From positions 343,468 through 407,467 of the forward strand of contig JANWLD010000001.1 of NCBI GenBank assembly GCA_025451045.1: a DNA stretch of 64,000 nt, written 5' to 3'. The position numbers and the translations under genes were made by a program. The notes beneath the pieces were generated by a model. The model did not search any database, was not told the DNA's origin, and saw nothing but the letters and a program-made list of their open reading frames with translations. The number at the start of each line of letters is the position of its first letter. Positions within the stretch are counted from its first letter, which is position 1. This document shows positions 35,424-44,108 of this stretch, in pieces. The stretch is from Candidatus Saccharimonadales bacterium. Lineage in GTDB: Bacteria > Patescibacteriota > Saccharimonadia > Saccharimonadales > 2-12-FULL-41-12.

Positions 35424-37031
35424 GTGGCTGAAATTGCCGGTAATGCACTGCTGTCTGTGTTTGATAAGACAGGCATTGAGGAATTTGCCAAAGGCTTAGC
35501 AGACTTAGGCTGGCGTATTTACGCGTCCGGTGGTACGGCTGAAGCTATCAAAAAAACTGGAGTGGAAGTCATTGATACCTCTGAACTCTCCGGCGGCGGC
35601 GCTATCCTGGGCCATCGTGTAGTCACCTTGTCGCGTGAAATATACGCCGGGATCTTGGCTGATTCATCCCAAGAAAAAGAACTCGATAAACTTAATATCC
35701 CAAAGATAGATTTGGTCTGCGTTGATATGTATCCGCTGAAAGAAGCGATTGATTCCGGCTCAAACGAAGCCGAAGTGATTGAAAAGACCGATGTTGGCGG
35801 CCCGACGCTGTTGCACGCGGCAGCCAAAGGCCGGCGAATAGTTTTGGCTCGCCCAGAGCAAAGAATAGAAGTTTTGGACTGGCTGGAAGCCGGTAAGCCG
35901 GATGAGGCTAAGTTTCGCAAAAAGCTGGCGGCCATAGCCGAATATGAAGTCGCGAATTATATGATTAAATCGGCTAATTATCTGGGCGAAGGCCATACTC
36001 TCGGCTATCTAGGCGAGCGGGTAGCCGCGCCGCCATATGGAGAAAATCCATGGCAGGGAAACGCGGGGCTATATATCGAAAGAGATAATCAGGATCCGCT
36101 GTCGCTCGGCAAATTCAAATTAATAGAAGGCAATGAACTTAGCTATAACAATTTCACTGATGTCGACAGGCTCCTCCAGACCATTACCCATGCCGCCGCT
36201 TCTTTTGAAAAGAACAACGGGGAAGTGCCGATTATCGCTCTGGGCGCTAAACACGGCAACCTTTGCGGCGCCGGATTTAACAAGGCCGCAAAAATAGCAG
36301 TTGAAAAAATGCTGGAAGGCGACTTGCGGGCTATATTTGGCGGTTCGGTAGTTATCAATACTGCCATTACAAAAGAAATTGCCGAAACGATAATGGGCTA
36401 TAAGATAGAAAAAGGAAAGCGGATACTTGATATTGTAATGGCACCGAGTGTTGATGATGACGCGTTGGAATTACTTAAGCGTAAAAATGGCAAGTTGCGC
36501 GTGCTTATCAATCCGGCTCTTGGCGAACTTGGTGAAAAATCTTTGGATAGTGCCCGTCGGCCAAGATATGTCCGCGGCGGCCGGTTGGCACAGGATAATT
36601 ATACCTTTGTTATAAACTACGCCTCGCCGGATGTCGAAAAACACGGCGCGCCGCCGACTAAAGGGCAAATGGATGACATGCAACTGGCTTGGGCGGTAGG
36701 GACGACCAGCAACAGTAACAGCATTTGTATAGTCAAAGACGGTATGTTGCTTTCTAATGGCGTTGGCCAGCAGGACAGGGTAACGGCTGCGGAACTGGCG
36801 TTGATGCGGGCAAAGAATGCCAGGCATGATACAAAGGGCGCTTCGGCCTACAGCGATAGTTTTTTTCCGTTCCCGGACGGGCCGCAAATATTGGCCGATG
36901 CGGGCGTGAAAGCTATCTTGACTACCAGGGGTTCGGTTAATGACGGGGTAGTGGTGGAAACCTTAACCAAAGCCGGTGTAACGTTTTGCACCTTTCCCGA
37001 CGCACAAGCACGCGGTTTTTACGCGCATTAA
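35424..37031 (+). CDS. purH: bifunctional AICAR transformylase / IMP cyclohydrolase
   Basis: 535 aa; GTG start after GGGAG; MGS-like N-terminus 'ALLSVFDKTGIEEFAKGL...ASGGTA'; C-terminal 'AYSDSFFPFPDG'. Confidence 0.9.
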   Translation: MAEIAGNALLSVFDKTGIEEFAKGLADLGWRIYASGGTAEAIKKTGVEVIDTSELSGGGAILGHRVVTLSREIYAGILADSSQEKELDKLNIPKIDLVCVDMYPLKEAIDSGSNEAEVIEKTDVGGPTLLHAAAKGRRIVLARPEQRIEVLDWLEAGKPDEAKFRKKLAAIAEYEVANYMIKSANYLGEGHTLGYLGERVAAPPYGENPWQGNAGLYIERDNQDPLSLGKFKLIEGNELSYNNFTDVDRLLQTITHAAASFEKNNGEVPIIALGAKHGNLCGAGFNKAAKIAVEKMLEGDLRAIFGGSVVINTAITKEIAETIMGYKIEKGKRILDIVMAPSVDDDALELLKRKNGKLRVLINPALGELGEKSLDSARRPRYVRGGRLAQDNYTFVINYASPDVEKHGAPPTKGQMDDMQLAWAVGTTSNSNSICIVKDGMLLSNGVGQQDRVTAAELALMRAKNARHDTKGASAYSDSFFPFPDGPQILADAGVKAILTTRGSVNDGVVVETLTKAGVTFCTFPDAQARGFYAH

Positions 37032-37069
37032 GACGCTAACGAGCGGGAACACTTCCCTGCTTCCCTATT

Positions 37070-37089
37070 TGTACTATTGCAATAGTACA
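37070..37089. promoter_or_regulatory. TrpR-operator-like perfect 20-bp palindrome
   Basis: TGTACTATTGCAATAGTACA has the same outer 7-bp arms and 6-bp centre spacing as the E. coli trp operator TGTACTAGTTAACTAGTACA; overlaps the -35 hexamer. Confidence 0.7.
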
Positions 37090-37105
37090 CAAATACAGGT
37101 ATAAT
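37077..37105 (+). promoter_or_regulatory. promoter of the trpR-trp operon (leaderless geometry)
   Basis: TTGCAA (37077-37082), 17-nt spacer, TATAAT (37100-37105), N6, ATG 37112. Confidence 0.65.
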
Positions 37106-37111
37106 GACGTG

Positions 37112-37378
37112 ATGAGTAAAAAATACGACGACGAGCTTCTAGAGCTTTTTTGTCAGACTGTTGACAAATTTACAATGTCTGAAATTTTATCAAATATGCT
37201 GACACCACAAGAGAGAGAAGAGCTGGCCACTCGCCTGCAAATATTTAAAAAACTGATTAAAGGCGAGAACCAACGCAGGATTGCTAAAGACTTGGGCGTT
37301 AGTATTGCCACTATTACCCGCGGCAGCCGCGAACTTCAATACGGCAAACCGGGCATTCGAAAGTTATACAAGAAATGA
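37112..37378 (+). CDS. trpR: Trp repressor
   Basis: 88 aa; '[47 protein letters not shown]' is colinear with E. coli TrpR '[48 protein letters not shown]'; stop overlaps the trpE ATG (ATGA). Confidence 0.85.
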   Translation: [88 protein letters not shown]

Positions 37379-38754
37379 TTGATTTAAGTTTTTTGAGCGA
37401 CAAACCCAAACCCGTCAATTTACCGACGGGCGTGGACTATTTGAAGCTTTTCTTTGCGCTTAAAAATAATTTTGGAGCGAGCTATATGTTTGAGTCGCTG
37501 GTTCTGCCAAAACAACAAGACCGGTACTACACTATAGGCTTTGACCCGCTATATGTTTTCTCAGCGCGCGGCGATAAGCTGACGATTAAAAGCAAAAACG
37601 GTTCGAAGGAAGTTGATACAAGTAACCCTTATCTTGAGCTGAAACAGTTTTTGCCTGCGATACCTAATGCGTCGCGCTACCAGGGCGGACTTGTCGGTTA
37701 TTTTGCTTACGAAGCGGCCAATTACTTCGAACCGGCGCTTGATTTGCCCAAGCACCCGGACTTCCCGACTTTTGAACTTGGGCTGTACGTTGACGGGCTG
37801 ATTTATGACAGCAAAACCCGCGAACTGACTTATTACACCTTTGGTGAAGATAGAAGTCCAGTCATAAAAGATGAAATTAATAATCTGAAAAATATTAACT
37901 TCCCCAAAAAAGTGGTAATAGCTGAGGATAAGGGCCTGTCTATTGATAAAGCACGGTATATGAAAATAGTGGAAACCACGCTTGATGAAATCAAAAAGGG
38001 TAACAGTTTTCAGGTAGAGGTAGGCTTCCGGAAAGATTACCAAATAACCGGCGATAAGTTTGCTATCTACAAACATCTGCGCGACGTTAACCCCAGTCCA
38101 TATATGTATTACATGCATTTTGGCGAGCGGGAAATTTTCGGCGCCAGCCCGGAACTGGTTGTCAGCTCAACCGGCGGCAATATATTGACTACTCCGGCCG
38201 CCGGTACGGTCAGACGCGGTGCTACGGAAGAAGAGGATAAAAAACTGGCCCGGCAACTGCTTAATGACCCGAAAGAACTATCCGAACACGCCATGCTGGT
38301 TGATCTTCATCGCAATGATATTTCCAAAGTCAGCAAATACGGTTCGGTCAAGGTAGCCGAGCTGATGCATCTGATGAAATTCAAATACGTCCAGCATATC
38401 TGCAGCGATATCATCGGCGAACTTAGAGAAGATAAGGACAGTTTTGATTTGCTTGGCGCCATAATGCCCTGCGGTGTCCTGACCGGCGCGCCAAAGATTG
38501 AAACGATGAAAATAATTGCCAGAAACGAACAATCACCGCGCGGTCCGTACGGCGGAGCTGTCGGCCGTTTCAGTTTCAATGGCGACTGCGCCTTTACCAT
38601 GCCTATACGCAGCCTGTTTTGTGCCGGAGACCATTGTTTTAACCAAGCCTGCAGCGGCGTAGTTTTTGACTCAGAGCCGGAAAAAGAATATGACGAAGTA
38701 ATAGCCAAGCTGTCTGGTATGGAGCAGACGATAAAGGAAGTATCAAATGGTTAA
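37375..38754 (+). CDS. trpE: anthranilate synthase component I
   Basis: 459 aa; 'GLVGYFAYEAANYFEP', 'EHAMLVDLHRNDI', 'GAPKIETMKIIARNEQSPRGPYGGAVG'. Confidence 0.9.
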   Translation: MIDLSFLSDKPKPVNLPTGVDYLKLFFALKNNFGASYMFESLVLPKQQDRYYTIGFDPLYVFSARGDKLTIKSKNGSKEVDTSNPYLELKQFLPAIPNASRYQGGLVGYFAYEAANYFEPALDLPKHPDFPTFELGLYVDGLIYDSKTRELTYYTFGEDRSPVIKDEINNLKNINFPKKVVIAEDKGLSIDKARYMKIVETTLDEIKKGNSFQVEVGFRKDYQITGDKFAIYKHLRDVNPSPYMYYMHFGEREIFGASPELVVSSTGGNILTTPAAGTVRRGATEEEDKKLARQLLNDPKELSEHAMLVDLHRNDISKVSKYGSVKVAELMHLMKFKYVQHICSDIIGELREDKDSFDLLGAIMPCGVLTGAPKIETMKIIARNEQSPRGPYGGAVGRFSFNGDCAFTMPIRSLFCAGDHCFNQACSGVVFDSEPEKEYDEVIAKLSGMEQTIKEVSNG

Positions 38755-39382
38755 AATATTGATTATTGATAACTACGACAGCTTTACTTATAACCTCGAG
38801 CATTTGTTCGGCGCCCTGCCCGACGTGAAAGTTGAAGTAGTAAGAAATGATGCTGATTTTATTCCTGAACTTGAGGCTGGTAAATATGACGGTGTAATCA
38901 TTAGTCCCGGTCCCGGTACGCCGCTCGATGAGAGTTATTTTGGTAAAAATCGGGAAGTAATAAGCCGTTTCGGCAAAAATGGCCTGCCAATCTTGGGAAT
39001 ATGCCTCGGTTTTCAGGGTATAGCCGCTACATTCGGCGCTAGTCTTAAACAAGCCGCTTTGCCCCAGCACGGCAAGCCCTCCGTGCTTAAGGTGACTAAG
39101 GATAGCCCTATATTGAAAGGCGTGCCGGACAATATAAAAGTCATGAGATACCACAGCTTGATGGTTGATATGGACAAGCCTTTTCCTGATGAGCTGATTA
39201 TTTTTGCTGAGGTTAACCCAGCCGCCGAAACAGTAAGTAAAAACGGCCGGGAAATAATGGGAATTGCCCACAAAAATCATCCTATATTCGGACTGCAGTT
39301 CCATCCGGAAAGTTATGCCACCGAACTGGGCAGTATCATTGCCGCGAATTTCATTGATATCATAAAAAGGAACCAAAAATGA
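38747..39382 (+). CDS. trpG: anthranilate synthase component II (glutamine amidotransferase)
   Basis: 211 aa; 'ILIIDNYDSFTYNL', nucleophile 'GICLGFQ', 'GLQFHPES'. Confidence 0.9.
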   Translation: MVKILIIDNYDSFTYNLEHLFGALPDVKVEVVRNDADFIPELEAGKYDGVIISPGPGTPLDESYFGKNREVISRFGKNGLPILGICLGFQGIAATFGASLKQAALPQHGKPSVLKVTKDSPILKGVPDNIKVMRYHSLMVDMDKPFPDELIIFAEVNPAAETVSKNGREIMGIAHKNHPIFGLQFHPESYATELGSIIAANFIDIIKRNQK

Positions 39383-41598
39383 CAATCGCAGAGTTTTTAA
39401 CCCGTACCGCCCAAGGCAAATTGTCTTTGGACGAACAAAAAGAATATCTGGCGGATAATCCTTTTCCGCCGGTAGAAGAGATAGCCGAAGCGGTCGAGTA
39501 TTTATACGGGCAGATGTCTGATGTACCCGACTTGCCCGACGCTATTGATATTTGCGGTACCGGCGGTTCGGGTTTGCCAAGGCTTAATGTCAGCACTATC
39601 AGCGCTTTTATCATTGCCGCCACCGGTACCAAAGTCGCCAAACATGGCAATAACGCCGCCAGCGGCAAATTTGGCAGCTTTGACTTGCTTGATGCCCTTG
39701 ATGTACCGATAAATCTATCGGTCCAAGAACTTCAACTAAGGTTCAACGAATACAACCTGGCATTTTTATATGCTAAAAGCTTTCACCCGATAATGCGGTT
39801 TTTTGCTCCGGTTCGGGGTGAGCTAAAAACACCGACTTTCTTTAATATTCTCGGTCCTTTGCTCAGCCCGGTCAAAGCCAATCGGCAGCTTATCGGTACG
39901 CCGAGACTTGAATATGCCCGGATTATCGCCGAAGTTTCCAAGATTCTTGGTAAAGAACGGGTCATCGTAGCAGTTGGCAGCGACGGACTGGACGAGGTTA
40001 CTTTAACCGGAGTTACCCATATTGTAGAGCTGAAAGACAAACGGATTGAAGAATACGAAATTACTCCAGCCGATTTTGGGGTTGAGCCGATTGCTGACTT
40101 TTCAGAAATTTCTACTGAAAGTCCCGAACACAACATTGAAATGGCTAAATTAATTTTGTCCGGGAAAGAAAAAGGCAAATTAACCCAATTAGTACTGGTA
40201 AATGCCGCGCTGGCGCTTTATATTGCGGAAGTATCGGATGATTTGAAAGAATGCTACAAATTGGCAAAAGATACTCTTGATTCCGGCAAAGCCCAAGAGG
40301 TTTTGGCAAATTACCTGATGCCGAGCGTGCTTAAAAAAATAATAGAGCGTGATGCCAAACGCGATTTTAGTATTACCGAAAAAAATACTCATAAACCGAA
40401 AAAATACACTGGCGGCCTGATTGCTGAAGTAAAGCGGTCCAGCCCCAGCGAAGGAGTTATAAACGATAAGCTGGATATAGTAGCCCAAGCCAAGCTTTAT
40501 GAAAATTCCGGGGCGTCAGCTATAAGCGTGCTGACGGAACCGGAAGACTTTGGCGGAAGTTTTGAAGACTTGAAAGAAATTAAGCAGGCAGTAAATATTC
40601 CGGTGCTTTGCAAAGATTTTATAGTTAGAAAAGAACATATCGACAAGGCCAAAGCTTGCGGCGCGGACATGGTGCTTTTGATTGCGGCGACTTTGAGCGA
40701 GGACAAGCTCAAAAAATTATATGATTATGCAAAAGATTCGGGGTTGCAATCGATAGTAGAAGTCCACACCGGCGCTGAACTGGAAAAAGCTTTGAAATTA
40801 AAACCCGAAATCATCGGTGTTAATTCGCGTAACCTTCATGACTTTTCGCTTCATCCGGACATCTTTGGACAACTGCTTTCCAAGCTACCGGCCAATACGA
40901 TTAAAATCGCTGAAAGCGGCATTAGCGGCTACGGCGATGTGCCAAAAGGTTATGACGGAATCCTTGTCGGTACCGAACTTATGAAGCATCCTTTCCCGCA
41001 GCTTAAAATTAAAGAACTTTTGGGCCAGCCTCTGGTAAAAATGTGCGGTATCAGAGAAACAAATGATGCAAAACTGTGCGAAGAACTCGGCGTAGATATG
41101 ATAGGTATCAATTTCGCAGCGCGCAGTAAACGTAAAGTGACCGCCGAGCAAGGTAAAAAAATCGCCGCGGTCTGCAAAAATACCATCCCGGTAGGAATCT
41201 TTGAAAACCAGATGGCAGATGAGGCCAACCTTATAGCCGAACAAACCGGCATACAAGCTATGCAGTTATCCGGTAATGAAAAAGATTTGAGCGGGTATAA
41301 TCTTCCCATAATAAAAACCATACGTTTGGGCGAGGATAAGCCTGAGGGCGCCTTTCTGACAATTTTGGATAGTCCGGTTGCCGGCAGCGGTGAAAAAATT
41401 GACCACTCAAAAATTAATAAGTTTGAACCTAACCTGATAGCCGGCGGGGTTGATTTAAATGTAGCCAAAACATTGCTTAGCACTAAAAACCCCTTGGGCA
41501 TAGATACGGCCAGTGGAATTGAAACCAATGGCAAAGTCGATCCGACAAAAATCAAATCTCTGCAGAAGCTTGTATCAACCAGCCGATACGATTCTTAA
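39379..41598 (+). CDS. triple fusion: anthranilate phosphoribosyltransferase (TrpD) + indole-3-glycerol-phosphate synthase (TrpC) + phosphoribosylanthranilate isomerase (TrpF)
   Basis: 739 aa. About aa 1-313 is TrpD ('DICGTGGSG', 'VAKHGNNAASGKFGSFDLLDAL'). About aa 314-548 is TrpC ('LIAEVKRSSPSEG', 'ISVLTEPEDFGGS', 'PVLCKDFI', 'IGVNSRNL', 'IAESGI'). About aa 549-739 is TrpF ('VKMCGIR', 'IGINFAARSKR', 'MQLSGNE', 'IAGGVDLNV', 'GIDTASGIE'). Confidence 0.85.
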   Translation: MTIAEFLTRTAQGKLSLDEQKEYLADNPFPPVEEIAEAVEYLYGQMSDVPDLPDAIDICGTGGSGLPRLNVSTISAFIIAATGTKVAKHGNNAASGKFGSFDLLDALDVPINLSVQELQLRFNEYNLAFLYAKSFHPIMRFFAPVRGELKTPTFFNILGPLLSPVKANRQLIGTPRLEYARIIAEVSKILGKERVIVAVGSDGLDEVTLTGVTHIVELKDKRIEEYEITPADFGVEPIADFSEISTESPEHNIEMAKLILSGKEKGKLTQLVLVNAALALYIAEVSDDLKECYKLAKDTLDSGKAQEVLANYLMPSVLKKIIERDAKRDFSITEKNTHKPKKYTGGLIAEVKRSSPSEGVINDKLDIVAQAKLYENSGASAISVLTEPEDFGGSFEDLKEIKQAVNIPVLCKDFIVRKEHIDKAKACGADMVLLIAATLSEDKLKKLYDYAKDSGLQSIVEVHTGAELEKALKLKPEIIGVNSRNLHDFSLHPDIFGQLLSKLPANTIKIAESGISGYGDVPKGYDGILVGTELMKHPFPQLKIKELLGQPLVKMCGIRETNDAKLCEELGVDMIGINFAARSKRKVTAEQGKKIAAVCKNTIPVGIFENQMADEANLIAEQTGIQAMQLSGNEKDLSGYNLPIIKTIRLGEDKPEGAFLTILDSPVAGSGEKIDHSKINKFEPNLIAGGVDLNVAKTLLSTKNPLGIDTASGIETNGKVDPTKIKSLQKLVSTSRYDS

Positions 41599-41635
41599 AC
41601 TTACTAAAATAGATTAAGATAATAAAGGAGAGTTT

Positions 41636-41998
41636 ATGAGGAAAGCTCAATTGAAAATCTGGCTACTTTCTATCGGCGGGGCTATCGTCGCCGTGTTTCT
41701 GATATATCACGGGTTTAAGCTTCTATTTCGTCCGAATGATGCTTCAGACTGGCAATTGTTTTTCCTTGGTGTAGGCTGCGTGTTGACTAGTGTGTTTACC
41801 CTAGCCGCGCAGGTATACGTACCGAAGAAATATAAAATAAGCGGCGCCTTGATGTTTTTGGGTATTTACTTCTTTGCCCGGGCAACCGGTATTATAGAAG
41901 GGGCGTGGTTTATGCGATTTTTGGGCCTCGCCTCTCTAATAGGGGCAGGGCTAATAGTATATGTAACTTACCTTGGCGGTAAGAAGATACATTTCTAA
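41636..41998 (+). CDS. hypothetical 4-TM membrane protein
   Basis: 120 aa; AAAGGAG RBS; hydrophobic throughout. Confidence 0.6.
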   Translation: MRKAQLKIWLLSIGGAIVAVFLIYHGFKLLFRPNDASDWQLFFLGVGCVLTSVFTLAAQVYVPKKYKISGALMFLGIYFFARATGIIEGAWFMRFLGLASLIGAGLIVYVTYLGGKKIHF

Positions 41999-42009
41999 AA
42001 GGTAGGGTA

Positions 42010-42411
42010 CTAAACTTCGGTTTCTGAACCGTGAACAGTCAACGCGTAGATTATCAGAATGTCAACGACTATTACGATGATTGACCAGATAGGGTACGCA
42101 TCGATAAATACAAAGTTAGCTATGATGGAGAATATTGCGAGCAATACCGCAACTATTCTTCCCCAAGCATGGCCGCTGATAACAGCTGTTCCGGCCAGCA
42201 TGACTACCAACCCTACCAAGAGGTGAATCCAACCCCAAGTAGTGTAGTCGAATACCAGTAGATTTTCCTGACCCACCACATAGAATTTGTCATTGAGCAG
42301 AGCCGCTAATCCGGCAATCATCTGCAGGATGCCTGTTATAAGCATCATAAATCCGGCGAAATATATCCAACCGACCCACCCGGTAACTTGTTTTCCGTTA
42401 TTGTTAGCCAT
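42010..42411 (-). CDS. 4-TM membrane protein, paralog A (DUF7144-like)
   Basis: Start set at the ATG preceded by GGAGG ('ttggaggattacATG'); 'TGWVGWI', 'FDYTTWGWIHL', 'AYPIWSI' shared with the neighbour. Confidence 0.65.
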   Translation of the reverse strand: MANNNGKQVTGWVGWIYFAGFMMLITGILQMIAGLAALLNDKFYVVGQENLLVFDYTTWGWIHLLVGLVVMLAGTAVISGHAWGRIVAVLLAIFSIIANFVFIDAYPIWSIIVIVVDILIIYALTVHGSETEV

Positions 42412-42438
42412 GTAATCCTCCAACTAACTTAAATTTTA

Positions 42439-42831
42439 TTAATCTTTGACCTCGGCTCCGTGCATAGTTAATGCATAGATAACCAAGCCGTCGATAACTA
42501 AAGCGGTAATTGACCAAATAGGGTAGGCAGAAACGAACGCGAGATTGGCAACTGCGCTCAAAATAGCCAAAAATACCCCAATAACTCTGCCCCAAGCCTG
42601 TCCGGCCATTACAGCACAGCCCGCGGCAAAAATAACGATTCCCATTATCAGGTGAATCCAGCCCCAGGTCGTATAATCAAAAGCCAGCAACCCGTTTTGT
42701 GTGGCGACATAAAAGTCGTCTTTAAAAAGTGCTGCTAGTCCGGCTATTGCCTGAAGACTTCCGAGCAAGAGCATCATAGCGCTTGCAAAAAATATCCAAC
42801 CTACCCAGCCTGTTGGTTTGTTGTTTGACAT
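42439..42831 (-). CDS. 4-TM membrane protein, paralog B (DUF7144-like)
   Basis: Start set at the ATG preceded by AAGGAGG ('aaggagggtccATG'); same conserved blocks as paralog A. Confidence 0.65.
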   Translation of the reverse strand: MSNNKPTGWVGWIFFASAMMLLLGSLQAIAGLAALFKDDFYVATQNGLLAFDYTTWGWIHLIMGIVIFAAGCAVMAGQAWGRVIGVFLAILSAVANLAFVSAYPIWSITALVIDGLVIYALTMHGAEVKD

Positions 42832-42913
42832 GGACCCTCCTTGTTTATATTCCCTATTGTCCGCCAATTATTTTAAATGTCAACCATAAGCAAAATGGCA
42901 AATACAGAGAAGT

Positions 42914-42922
42914 TGTTATAAT
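42914..42922 (+). promoter_or_regulatory. extended -10 (TGtTATAAT) N6 upstream of ATG 42929: leaderless-type promoter
   Basis: TGtTATAAT gatttc ATG. Confidence 0.55.
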
Positions 42923-42928
42923 GATTTC

Positions 42929-43216
42929 ATGCAAAAAGAATTTGACCGCCATCTTTATAGAGTTTTATTAGCCGCAACCCTTTTGACTTTGAGCATAGGC
43001 ACTGTTGTATATCATGAAGTAGAACACTTTAACTGGGTGGATGCTTATTATTTCAGCGTTATTACTCTGGCCACTGTCGGTTATGGCGATTTTACGCCGC
43101 ATACCACTTTTGGCAAAATTTTTACCACTTTCTATATTTTTATCGGCGTAGGCATTATTACGGCTTTCATTACTTACTCTATCCGCCGCCGAGCCAGCCG
43201 GATGAAGAAAAAGTAA
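42929..43216 (+). CDS. minimal two-TM potassium channel (95 aa)
   Basis: TM1, pore helix, selectivity filter 'TVGYGD', TM2; no cytoplasmic regulatory domain, only a short basic tail. Confidence 0.8.
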   Translation: MQKEFDRHLYRVLLAATLLTLSIGTVVYHEVEHFNWVDAYYFSVITLATVGYGDFTPHTTFGKIFTTFYIFIGVGIITAFITYSIRRRASRMKKK

Positions 43217-43226
43217 GGAGATTATC

Positions 43227-44108
43227 ATGCCGGAGGAAGATGAAAATCAAATTCGAGAAGCGGAGCGGGCTGAACCAGCTTACAGCGGCGAAGATATTCC
43301 CGGGGAAGAACTAAGAGTACCTAATGATGTACCGCAGGAACATTTAGCTCATTCGTCAATGATGGCCGGCGGTGTCGAAAAAGCACCGAAAAACTTAATT
43401 ATGAAAAGATTAACCTTTGTCTTGTTGTTTCTGGTAGCTTTAGGCATAGTCGGTTTTGCCGCCTGGAAGCTTATTCCGGCCAAGGGCGAGTCTAACAAAT
43501 CGGCGCAAAATACCCAGAGCCAATCCCAACAAGCGCAAACTTCCGACCCGGTGGCTACGGCACTCGGCGATACCCACCTGACCCAAACCTACACCAGCGA
43601 TACCCTGCGTCTGTTAATTAAATATCCGTCCAGCTGGAAAGTCACCGAAGAAAATAATGCCGTGACCGTCAAATCCCCGTCATTTGATTTGGCCGACAAC
43701 ACCGGCATGGAAGACTCGACCTATTTCAAAGTCTATATAAAAATGGGCGCAACCGAGACGGAAGGCAAATACCTTGGCAAGGGTTATGCCATAGCACCGT
43801 CGGAAAAGCTGGCTTACACGGATCCGCTGGTCGGCCAGCGTAAAACTACGTTTCTGACCGATTTCGGCCTGGATAATCCCGATAATTTTGCATATTTGGT
43901 GGTGCAGGGCAATTTCGAACTGGAAAAAGGCGACACGCTAGGTCCGAAATTCGCCAGTGAACCCGACGCGTTTTTGGTTACCGGCGGCTTTGCTACCGAA
44001 ACGGAAAAGGATGGCCTGCAAACCCGGCTTATGTCCATGGATTCTTACAAACAGAATCTGGCATATCAGACAGGGGTTGAGATTATAAAAAGTCTTCAGC
44101 TTAAATAA
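43227..44108 (+). CDS. hypothetical membrane-anchored protein with acidic N-terminus
   Basis: 293 aa; AAGGAG RBS; one TM ('LTFVLLFLVALGIVGFAAW'), then a Q/S-rich linker and a soluble domain. Confidence 0.6.
   Translation: MPEEDENQIREAERAEPAYSGEDIPGEELRVPNDVPQEHLAHSSMMAGGVEKAPKNLIMKRLTFVLLFLVALGIVGFAAWKLIPAKGESNKSAQNTQSQSQQAQTSDPVATALGDTHLTQTYTSDTLRLLIKYPSSWKVTEENNAVTVKSPSFDLADNTGMEDSTYFKVYIKMGATETEGKYLGKGYAIAPSEKLAYTDPLVGQRKTTFLTDFGLDNPDNFAYLVVQGNFELEKGDTLGPKFASEPDAFLVTGGFATETEKDGLQTRLMSMDSYKQNLAYQTGVEIIKSLQLK

What the first reader, a model, noticed from the sequence alone, without database searches (positions are those of the whole stretch)
39379..41598. Triple TrpD-TrpC-TrpF fusion, and an operon that stops at indole-3-glycerol phosphate (no trpBA)
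One 739-aa ORF carries three consecutive domains: TrpD (about aa 1-313), TrpC (about 314-548) and TrpF (about 549-739). All have recognisable active-site motifs.

I know of TrpG-D and TrpC-F fusions (E. coli) but not of a D-C-F arrangement. The TrpD part also deviates at hallmark motifs: 'GTGGSG' instead of GTGGDG, and 'KHGNNAASGKFGSFD' instead of KHGNRxxSSxxGSAD.

The operon trpR-E-G-(DCF) is followed by unrelated membrane genes, and tryptophan synthase (trpA/trpB) is absent from the window. Either trpBA are elsewhere, or the product (IGP or indole after spontaneous or foreign cleavage) is handed to a partner organism. The latter would be interesting if this is an episymbiont.
Basis: partly seen in the sequence, partly recalled or inferred. 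Interest (0 to 1): 0.6.

Follow-up and report, generated by a model that had tools for sequence, protein, structure and literature searches.

The report
Fused tryptophan enzyme, split operon
The three-in-one tryptophan-pathway enzyme is real but common among small-genome bacteria, and at least trpA of the "missing" last step lies elsewhere on the same chromosome piece, so this is an ordinary split operon and not a pathway handed over to a partner.

Summary
ORF 39379-41598 encodes one 739-aa protein with TrpD, TrpC and TrpF domains. It closes a translationally coupled trpR-trpE-trpG-trpDCF operon, and no trpA or trpB lies in the 64-kb window.

The interesting reading does not hold:
- **The D-C-F fusion is common.** All 120 best database hits have the same three domains. 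They come from Saccharimonadales, Gracilibacteria, Peregrinibacteria, Parcubacteria and Marinimicrobia, and G-D-C-F versions also exist.
- **The "deviant" TrpD motifs are subfamily signatures.** GTGGS and GSFD each occur in 119 of 120 fusion proteins, including ones in complete operons with trpBA.
- **trpA is on the same contig.** A full-length TrpA (P0171) has exactly the record signature of the window's own proteins: NCBI only, one contig, 538,338 bp.
- **Relatives keep trpBA separately.** Saccharimonadales relatives keep trpB-trpA as a separate unit behind its own TrpR, which in one case is fused to TrpB. A 50%-identical relative has trpR-B-A-E-G-DCF in one operon.

A perfect 20-bp TrpR-operator-like palindrome overlaps the promoter and is identical in relatives. 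TrpB itself could not be retrieved for this genome, so its presence is inferred. Verdict: an ordinary split, TrpR-regulated tryptophan pathway, of low interest.

The parts
37070..37089 (.). Perfect 20-bp palindrome TGTACTATTG|CAATAGTACA, a putative TrpR operator overlapping the -35 box
   Evidence: It is the only inverted repeat found in the trpR upstream region. It is unique in the window, with 0 matches in 100 shuffles. It is 100% identical in L001 and L003, whose proteins are only 68-70% identical. The core GTACTA-N6-TAGTAC also lies upstream of trpE in the distant locus L005. The operator function is inferred from its resemblance to the E. coli TrpR operator half-site (GTACTAG, own knowledge).
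37077..37105 (+). Sigma-70-like promoter TTGCAA-17-TATAAT, ending 4 nt before the trpR start
   Evidence: Joint best consensus match in 36900-42100 (10 of 12). This is a consensus match only.
37109..37378 (+). trpR (89 aa, GTG start), the tryptophan repressor
   Evidence: PF01371 E 2.3e-21. TIGR01321 scores 72.5 bits against a cutoff of 67.25.
37375..38754 (+). trpE, anthranilate synthase component I (459 aa)
   Evidence: PF00425 E 9.2e-79 and PF04715 E 2.1e-18. The best NCBIfam matches are TrpE models, though below the equivalog cutoffs. Its start overlaps the trpR stop by 4 nt.
38747..39382 (+). trpG, the glutamine amidotransferase component II (211 aa)
   Evidence: PF00117 E 2.8e-44. TIGR00566 trpG_papA scores 149.6 bits against a cutoff of 121. 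It overlaps the trpE end by 8 nt.
39379..41598 (+). trpDCF, one ORF of 739 aa encoding a trifunctional enzyme
   Evidence: Its start overlaps the trpG stop by 4 nt (ATGA).
39535..40293 (+). TrpD catalytic domain (aa 53-305), with GTGGS, KHGN and DGLDE motifs
   Evidence: PF00591 E 6.6e-70. It aligns over aa 47-310 with the solved TrpD 9ucw at E 2.3e-57. Motif conservation across the family is shown.
40354..41019 (+). TrpC (IGPS) domain (aa 326-547), with IAEVKRSSPS, LCKDFI, VEVHT, GVNSRNL and AESGI motifs
   Evidence: PF00218 E 4.7e-70. The motifs are conserved across 120 family members.
41035..41562 (+). TrpF (PRAI) domain (aa 553-728), with the catalytic-type Cys (VKMCGI) and Asp (LDS...GSG)
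   Evidence: PF00697 E 1.3e-26. The motifs are conserved.

Best explanation
This is the first of two transcription units of a complete, TrpR-regulated tryptophan pathway in a Saccharimonadales (CPR/Patescibacteria) bacterium.

**Regulation (inferred).** A promoter overlapped by a 20-bp palindrome drives trpR-trpE-trpG-trpDCF as one translationally coupled message. When tryptophan is plentiful, TrpR with bound tryptophan would sit on the palindrome and shut off its own operon.

**Chemistry (established knowledge of the Trp pathway).** TrpE and TrpG make anthranilate from chorismate. The 739-aa TrpD-TrpC-TrpF protein then carries out three consecutive reactions: anthranilate + PRPP to PRA (D), PRA to CdRP (F), and CdRP to indole-3-glycerol phosphate (C). 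The fusion plausibly keeps the labile PRA close to the next active site, but that is inference.

**Last step.** Conversion of IGP + serine to tryptophan is done by tryptophan synthase. Its alpha subunit gene is on the same 538-kb contig outside the window. Its beta subunit gene is inferred to sit next to it, as in every relative examined.

**Shown:** the domains, conserved catalytic motifs, operon structure, conservation of the palindrome, commonness of the fusion, and TrpA on a contig with the same fingerprint.

**Inferred:** operator function, presence of TrpB, enzymatic activity and the source of chorismate.
For: **Domains and motifs**
- All three domains score far above the curated thresholds.
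- TrpC and TrpF catalytic-type motifs and the TrpD KHGN and DGLDE motifs are conserved in 120 homologues.
- All three domains are similarly conserved within the close clade, at 67, 64 and 59% mean identity, so none is decaying.

**Fusion is real and widespread**
- It is continuous in 116 of 120 (D-C junction) and 120 of 120 (C-F junction) independent assemblies.
- It is present in every one of the 120 best hits.

**Fusion works in complete pathways elsewhere**
- L004 and L005: (trpR-)E-G-DCF-DAHPS-trpB-trpA; trpR is present only in L004.
- L006: trpR-B-A-E-G-DCF.

**trpA on the same contig**
- P0171 is 241 aa with EVQIPFSDPIADG and GFGIS motifs.
- It is recorded as NCBI only, 1 contig, 538,338 bp.
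- That is identical to P0001 (the DCF protein itself) and four other window proteins.

**Separate trpBA units in relatives**
- L007 (Saccharimonadales) and L008 (Saccharibacteria) carry a separate trpR-trpB-trpA unit.

**Regulation**
- The palindrome is unique, perfect and identical in diverged relatives.
Against: - TrpB of this genome was not retrieved. The TrpB search lists only the top 120 of at least 8000 hits, and none has the 538,338 fingerprint. A known Saccharimonadales TrpB (L007, contig 64,115) is also missing from that list, so the absence is uninformative.
- No shikimate-pathway or PRPP synthetase gene lies in the window, so the supply of chorismate and PRPP is unverified.
- The Asp of the GTGGD motif is Ser, and the TrpD N-terminal helical domain (PF02885) is not detected. 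Activity of this TrpD subtype has not been shown experimentally, as far as I could find.
- For the closest long relative (P0013, 896-kb contig), no TrpA with that contig length appeared.
Confidence: 0.85

Rival explanations
1. The pathway really ends at indole-3-glycerol phosphate, or at indole if only TrpA is present. The intermediate is passed to a host or partner bacterium, or indole serves as a signal.
For: - No trpBA lies within the window or within 10 kb of the operon in syntenic relatives.
- TrpB of this genome was not found in the truncated list.
- No TrpA was seen for the 896-kb relative contig.
- Saccharimonadales are episymbionts (own knowledge).
Against: - A full-length TrpA with intact catalytic-type motifs carries the same contig fingerprint as the window.
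- In all five loci where trpA was seen, trpB is directly upstream.
- The operon is led by a tryptophan repressor with a conserved operator-like palindrome. That makes sense if the end product is tryptophan.
- IGP is a phosphorylated intermediate not known to be exported (own knowledge).
Confidence: 0.05
2. The triple fusion is an artefact of assembly, or a frameshift that merged separate trpD, trpC and trpF genes.
For: None was found.
Against: - 120 of 120 best hits from NCBI, JGI, ENA and Logan assemblies have all three domains in one protein.
- The junction sequences are continuous and conserved.
- Lengths are tightly clustered at 733-740 aa in the close clade.
Confidence: 0.01
3. The TrpD domain is catalytically altered or inactive because of GTGGS and KHGNN. 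The protein would then act only as TrpC-F, or on another substrate.
For: - The Asp of GTGGD is replaced by Ser.
- The Arg after KHGN is replaced by Asn.
- PF02885 is not detected, and only 59 residues precede GTGG against about 78 in the members where PF02885 is detected.
Against: - GTGGS occurs in 119 of 120 fusion proteins and GSFD in 119 of 120. These include operons where this domain is the only TrpD next to trpE, G, B and A.
- The residue after KHGN is already variable: K, R or N in the family, and K in the best solved TrpD, 9ucw.
- TIGR01245 scores well above its cutoff.
- The TrpD domain is the most conserved of the three in the clade, at 67%.
- From memory and not verified here: a D83G mutant of the Sulfolobus TrpD remains active (PDB 3gbr appears).
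Confidence: 0.04

Closest known systems
E. coli bifunctional TrpC-TrpF (IGPS-PRAI) and TrpG-TrpD fusions
   Same: The same enzymes and the same C-then-F domain order. The gene order trpE-G-D-C-F is also the same. The C-F part aligns with NF006945 over aa 344-730.
   Different: Here TrpD is fused to C-F and TrpG is separate. The score of 263 bits is below the NF006945 equivalog cutoff of 380. trpBA are not in the same operon.
D-C-F fusion proteins of CPR/Patescibacteria and other uncultured phyla (for example P0062 Gracilibacteria, P0093 Peregrinibacteria, P0113 Marinimicrobia)
   Same: Identical three-domain architecture, the GTGGS and GSFD signatures, the short N-terminus (59 residues before GTGG), and a trpR-led E-G-DCF order.
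   Different: Those loci continue with DAHP synthase-trpB-trpA. The window clade ends after DCF and has N instead of K or R after KHGN (43 of 43 in the close clade).
Chlamydia trachomatis trpR-trpB-trpA operon (own knowledge)
   Same: Saccharimonadales relatives L007 and L008 have a stand-alone trpR-led trpB-trpA unit. This shows that a TrpR-controlled trpBA module can exist apart from the rest of the pathway.
   Different: The Chlamydia trachomatis genome lacks trpE, trpG, trpD and trpC and salvages indole (own knowledge). This genome has E, G and DCF as well. The trpBA unit of the source genome itself was not read.
Split trp operons such as Sinorhizobium meliloti trpE(G) / trpDC / trpFBA (abstract of PMC6614838, listed)
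   Same: The tryptophan genes are distributed over several transcription units of one genome.
   Different: Different split points and different regulation: attenuation there, TrpR here.

Membership tests
Anthranilate phosphoribosyltransferase TrpD (TIGR01245 / PF00591) | Profile score above the curated cutoff | tested here: met
   TIGR01245 scores 298.8 bits against 199.05. PF00591 scores 236 bits against 27.
Anthranilate phosphoribosyltransferase TrpD (TIGR01245 / PF00591) | PRPP-binding GTGGD motif with Asp | tested here: not met
   The protein has GTGGS. The same Ser occurs in 119 of 120 D-C-F proteins, so it is a subfamily trait. Solved TrpDs have GTGGD.
Anthranilate phosphoribosyltransferase TrpD (TIGR01245 / PF00591) | KHGN motif and acidic DE metal site (DGxDE) | tested here: met
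   KHGN at aa 88-91 and GSDGLDEVT at aa 200-208, conserved family-wide.
Anthranilate phosphoribosyltransferase TrpD (TIGR01245 / PF00591) | N-terminal helical domain (PF02885) | tested here: inconclusive
   Not detected by Pfam in this protein. Only 59 residues precede GTGG, against about 78 in members where PF02885 is detected. Most of the D-C-F family shares the short form.
Indole-3-glycerol phosphate synthase TrpC (PF00218) | Profile score above cutoff, and catalytic-type motifs ExK, K(DF), E(VH), N and S | tested here: met
   236 bits against 27. IAEVKRSSPS, LCKDFI, VEVHT, GVNSRNL and AESGI are all conserved in the family. Assigning these residues to catalysis is from my own knowledge of IGPS.
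Phosphoribosylanthranilate isomerase TrpF (PF00697) | Profile score above cutoff, and the catalytic-type Cys near the N-terminus and Asp before GSG | tested here: met
   93.9 bits against 22.7. K-x-CG and xD...GSG are conserved in all groups.
Trp repressor TrpR (TIGR01321 / PF01371) | Profile score above cutoff, and a palindromic operator at the regulated promoter | tested here: met
   72.5 bits against 67.25. A perfect 20-bp palindrome overlaps the -35 box and is conserved in relatives. Binding itself was not tested.
Complete tryptophan biosynthesis branch (chorismate to Trp) | trpE, G, D, C and F present | tested here: met
Complete tryptophan biosynthesis branch (chorismate to Trp) | trpA present in the same genome | tested here: met
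   P0171 (TrpA, PF00290) is recorded as NCBI only, 1 contig, 538,338 bp, identical to five window proteins. This is indirect, because the contig was not read.
Complete tryptophan biosynthesis branch (chorismate to Trp) | trpB present in the same genome | not testable with these tools
   The TrpB hit list is truncated at 120 of at least 8000, and the source contig is not retrievable. trpB is adjacent to trpA in all five loci examined.
E. coli-type bifunctional TrpC/TrpF (NF006945) | Equivalog score cutoff | tested here: not met
   263.4 bits against a cutoff of 380. The protein is related but is not an equivalog of the two-domain protein.

The most novel reading that the evidence does not exclude
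The source genome (or some members of its clade, such as the 896-kb relative for which no TrpA was seen) might have TrpA but no TrpB, or neither. The TrpR-controlled E-G-DCF operon would then yield indole or IGP as an exchanged metabolite or signal between the episymbiont and its host.

A weaker but more likely novelty is that Saccharimonadales run tryptophan synthesis as two separately TrpR-gated modules, some with TrpR physically fused to TrpB.
Probability: 0.06. Interest if true: 0.55.

Novelty: new member of a known kind. Interest (0 to 1): 0.15.

Why it matters
It matters little as a discovery. The enzymes, the regulator and the idea of fused or split trp genes are textbook, and the D-C-F architecture is already abundant in public databases, although it is usually under-annotated as "anthranilate phosphoribosyltransferase" or "bifunctional TrpC/TrpF".

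It has modest value in three ways:
- It shows that an environmental Saccharimonadales lineage keeps most, and probably all, of a regulated tryptophan branch, which cultivated host-associated relatives are reported to lack (own knowledge).
- It defines GTGGS and GSFD as signatures of the fused TrpD subtype.
- It warns against inferring metabolic hand-offs from a single genomic window.

Tried and rejected
- **Exact-protein look-ups.** Look-ups of the DCF protein, P0001 and P0171 in the gene-position index gave no record, so the source contig could not be read beyond the window.
- **Genome-contig scan with P0171.** The source genome is not a species representative, so only 54-57% relatives were found.
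- **Metagenome-contig scan with P0171.** Only 4 loci were returned, none from the 896-kb relative contig. The patterns used were near-exact 8-mers, so this is uninformative about that relative.
- **TrpB search.** The family is too conserved, and the top 120 are saturated at 68-79% identity. No 538,338 fingerprint appeared, and the control (L007's TrpB) was also absent.
- **Literature searches.** I found no paper describing D-C-F fusions or Saccharibacteria tryptophan genes specifically. PMC11237513 mentions trpGD, trpD-trpC, trpF-trpB and trpF-trpC fusions. [quoted passage not shown] A search for the D83G TrpD mutant found nothing, so that point stays a recollection.
- **Terminator after DCF.** I found no convincing intrinsic terminator. 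The nearest match lies inside the next ORF.
- **Frameshift or misassembly.** Considered and rejected.
Full report
**Observation**

The ORF at 39379-41598 (+) is real and encodes 739 aa.
- Pfam places the TrpD catalytic domain at aa 53-305 (E 6.6e-70), IGPS/TrpC at aa 326-547 (E 4.7e-70) and PRAI/TrpF at aa 553-728 (E 1.3e-26).
- The NCBIfam trpD model TIGR01245 scores 298.8 bits against a cutoff of 199.
- Upstream lie trpR (37109-37378), trpE (37375-38754) and trpG (38747-39382). Consecutive genes overlap by 4, 8 and 4 nt, as expected for translational coupling.
- purH precedes the operon. A small membrane protein and two DUF7144 genes follow it.
- A six-frame motif scan found no trpB or trpA in the 64-kb window. 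tblastn with TrpB and TrpA from three related loci also found none.

**Is the D-C-F fusion unusual?**

It is not. A search of 5.8 billion proteins returned 726 hits at E <= 1e-10. All 120 best hits carry PF00591 + PF00218 + PF00697 in one polypeptide.
- A close clade (57-71% identity, 733-743 aa) is named Candidatus Saccharimonadales or Saccharibacteria by its sources.
- More distant members (39-45% identity) come from Gracilibacteria, Peregrinibacteria, Parcubacteria and Marinimicrobia.
- G-D-C-F proteins of 914-990 aa also occur.
- The two junctions are continuous in 116 of 120 and 120 of 120 sequences, and the linker sequences are conserved within the clade. This excludes a frameshift or assembly artefact.

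**Are the TrpD motifs deviant?**

They differ from canonical TrpD but not from this subfamily.
- GTGGS occurs in 119 of 120 fusion proteins, and the GSFD ending of the second motif also occurs in 119 of 120.
- The residue after KHGN is N in 43 of 43 close-clade members and K or R elsewhere. The best solved TrpD (9ucw) has K there.
- The DGLDE metal site is conserved, as are the TrpC motifs (ExK, KDF, EVH, NxR, ESG) and the TrpF Cys and Asp motifs.
- Mean identity to the window protein within the close clade is 67% (D), 64% (C) and 59% (F), so no domain is decaying.
- The same TrpD subtype sits in operons that contain every other trp gene. This argues that it is functional.
- The N-terminal helical domain is short. 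Only 59 residues precede GTGG, and PF02885 is not detected. That is the majority state of the family.

**Where are trpB and trpA?**

The operon layout varies with distance from the window:
- In relatives at 68-70% identity (L001 on an 896-kb JGI contig, and L003), the layout is the same as here: purH, trpR-E-G-DCF, a 287-aa hypothetical protein, inositol phosphatase, DUF308. No trpBA lies within 10 kb.
- More distant carriers have (trpR-)E-G-DCF-DAHP synthase-trpB-trpA; trpR is present only in L004 (L004 and L005).
- A 50%-identical relative has trpR-trpB-trpA-trpE-G-DCF next to a shikimate operon (L006).

Using L006 TrpA as a probe, hit P0171 is a 241-aa TrpA with EVQIPFSDPIADG and GFGIS motifs. 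Its only record is one NCBI contig of 538,338 bp. P0001, which is 100% identical to the window's DCF, and four other window proteins have exactly the same record: NCBI only, unnamed, 1 contig, 538,338 bp. trpA is therefore on the same contig, outside the window.

The TrpB probe saturated, because its top 120 hits all lie at 68-79% identity (apart from the query itself). It showed no 538,338 entry. The known TrpB of L007 (contig 64,115) is equally missing from that list, so the absence says nothing. Two Saccharimonadales genomes found with P0171 carry a separate trpBA unit:
- L007 has a continuous 495-aa TrpR-TrpB ORF followed by trpA.
- L008 has trpR, two small ORFs, trpB, trpA and then a class-I Trp/Tyr-type tRNA synthetase, probably TrpRS.

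In all five loci where trpA was seen, trpB is immediately upstream. TrpB in the source genome is therefore inferred, not shown.

**Regulation**

- The 77-bp purH-trpR spacer contains a perfect 20-bp palindrome, TGTACTATTG|CAATAGTACA (37070-37089).
- It overlaps the -35 hexamer of the joint best promoter match, TTGCAA-17-TATAAT at 37077-37105.
- It is unique in the window, with none in 100 shuffles.
- It is base-for-base identical in L001 and L003 while the flanking spacer diverges.
- Its core GTACTA-N6-TAGTAC recurs upstream of trpE in the distant L005.
- The arms resemble the E. coli TrpR operator half-site (own knowledge).

The simplest reading is autoregulation of the operon by TrpR with tryptophan as co-repressor. 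That fits a pathway whose end product is tryptophan.

**Downstream genes**

The "unrelated membrane genes" at 41636-43216 are a 120-aa TM protein, two DUF7144 paralogues and a 95-aa protein with a TVGYGD motif. They have no counterpart in L001-L003. In those loci DCF is followed directly by the homologue of window 43227-44108. The block is a lineage-specific insertion and not part of the trp unit.

**Mechanism**

The pathway steps below are established knowledge of the Trp pathway.
1. TrpE and TrpG convert chorismate to anthranilate.
2. TrpD adds PRPP to give PRA.
3. TrpF isomerises PRA to CdRP.
4. TrpC cyclises CdRP to IGP.
5. Tryptophan synthase, encoded elsewhere on the contig, completes the synthesis.

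As in E. coli TrpC-F, the domain order D-C-F is not the reaction order D-F-C. Fusion may limit loss of the labile PRA, but that is inference. The supply of chorismate and PRPP is untested, since neither the shikimate genes nor prs are in the window.

**Comparison and verdict**

The closest known things are:
- the E. coli TrpC-F and TrpG-D fusions;
- the many database D-C-F proteins of CPR bacteria;
- split trp operons such as those of Sinorhizobium (abstract of PMC6614838, listed);
- the chlamydial trpR-B-A module (own knowledge).

The literature I could search mentions D-C, F-B, F-C and G-D fusions (PMC11237513) and trpA/trpB in a minority of groundwater Patescibacteria (PMC8672522). It does not single out D-C-F.

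The second is met. The first is met for trpA and inferred for trpB. This is an ordinary, probably complete, TrpR-regulated tryptophan pathway split into two units. Interest is low. The residual uncertainty is the unverified trpB, and whether every member of the clade keeps trpBA.

Noticed in passing
L007:8309-9796 (+); also P0302, P0308, P0315, P0316, P0318, P0325, P0344, P0346, P0352, P0354, P0355, P0358, P0360: TrpR-TrpB fusion proteins of about 474-529 aa (PF01371 + PF00291) occur in at least 13 protein clusters and as a continuous ORF in a Saccharimonadales genome. A tryptophan repressor is fused to the enzyme that makes its co-repressor. I know of no description of this.
   Followed up: partly
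P0017 (914 aa, 67% identity, close clade); P0049, P0051, P0052, P0054, P0088 (942-990 aa): Four-domain TrpG-TrpD-TrpC-TrpF proteins exist, including one in the close Saccharimonadales clade. In the window, trpG and trpDCF overlap by ATGA, so a single-base change could create or break such a fusion.
   Followed up: no
window 41636-43216: A block of four small membrane-protein genes: a 120-aa TM protein, two tandem DUF7144 paralogues on the minus strand, and a 95-aa protein with a K+-channel-like TVGYGD selectivity-filter motif. The block is inserted between trpDCF and its ancestral neighbour and is absent from the syntenic relatives L001-L003.
   Followed up: partly
L008:9954-10955 (+): In a Saccharibacteria relative, trpB-trpA is followed directly by a class-I Trp/Tyr-type tRNA synthetase (PF00579), probably TrpRS. 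This links tryptophan synthesis and tRNA charging in one cluster.
   Followed up: no
L006:1-5301 (-) and L004:1-5354 (-): In more distant D-C-F carriers, a shikimate-pathway operon (DAHP synthase, DHQ synthase, EPSP synthase, shikimate kinase and dehydrogenase) lies divergently next to trpR. No such genes are in the window or within 10 kb in L001/L003, so the chorismate source for this clade is open.
   Followed up: partly
window 37041-37062: A terminator-like hairpin (GAGCGGGAACACTTCCCTGCTT, followed by a T-rich tail) lies just after purH and just before the trpR palindrome. Part of it (ACTTCCCTGC) is conserved in L001 and L003.
   Followed up: no
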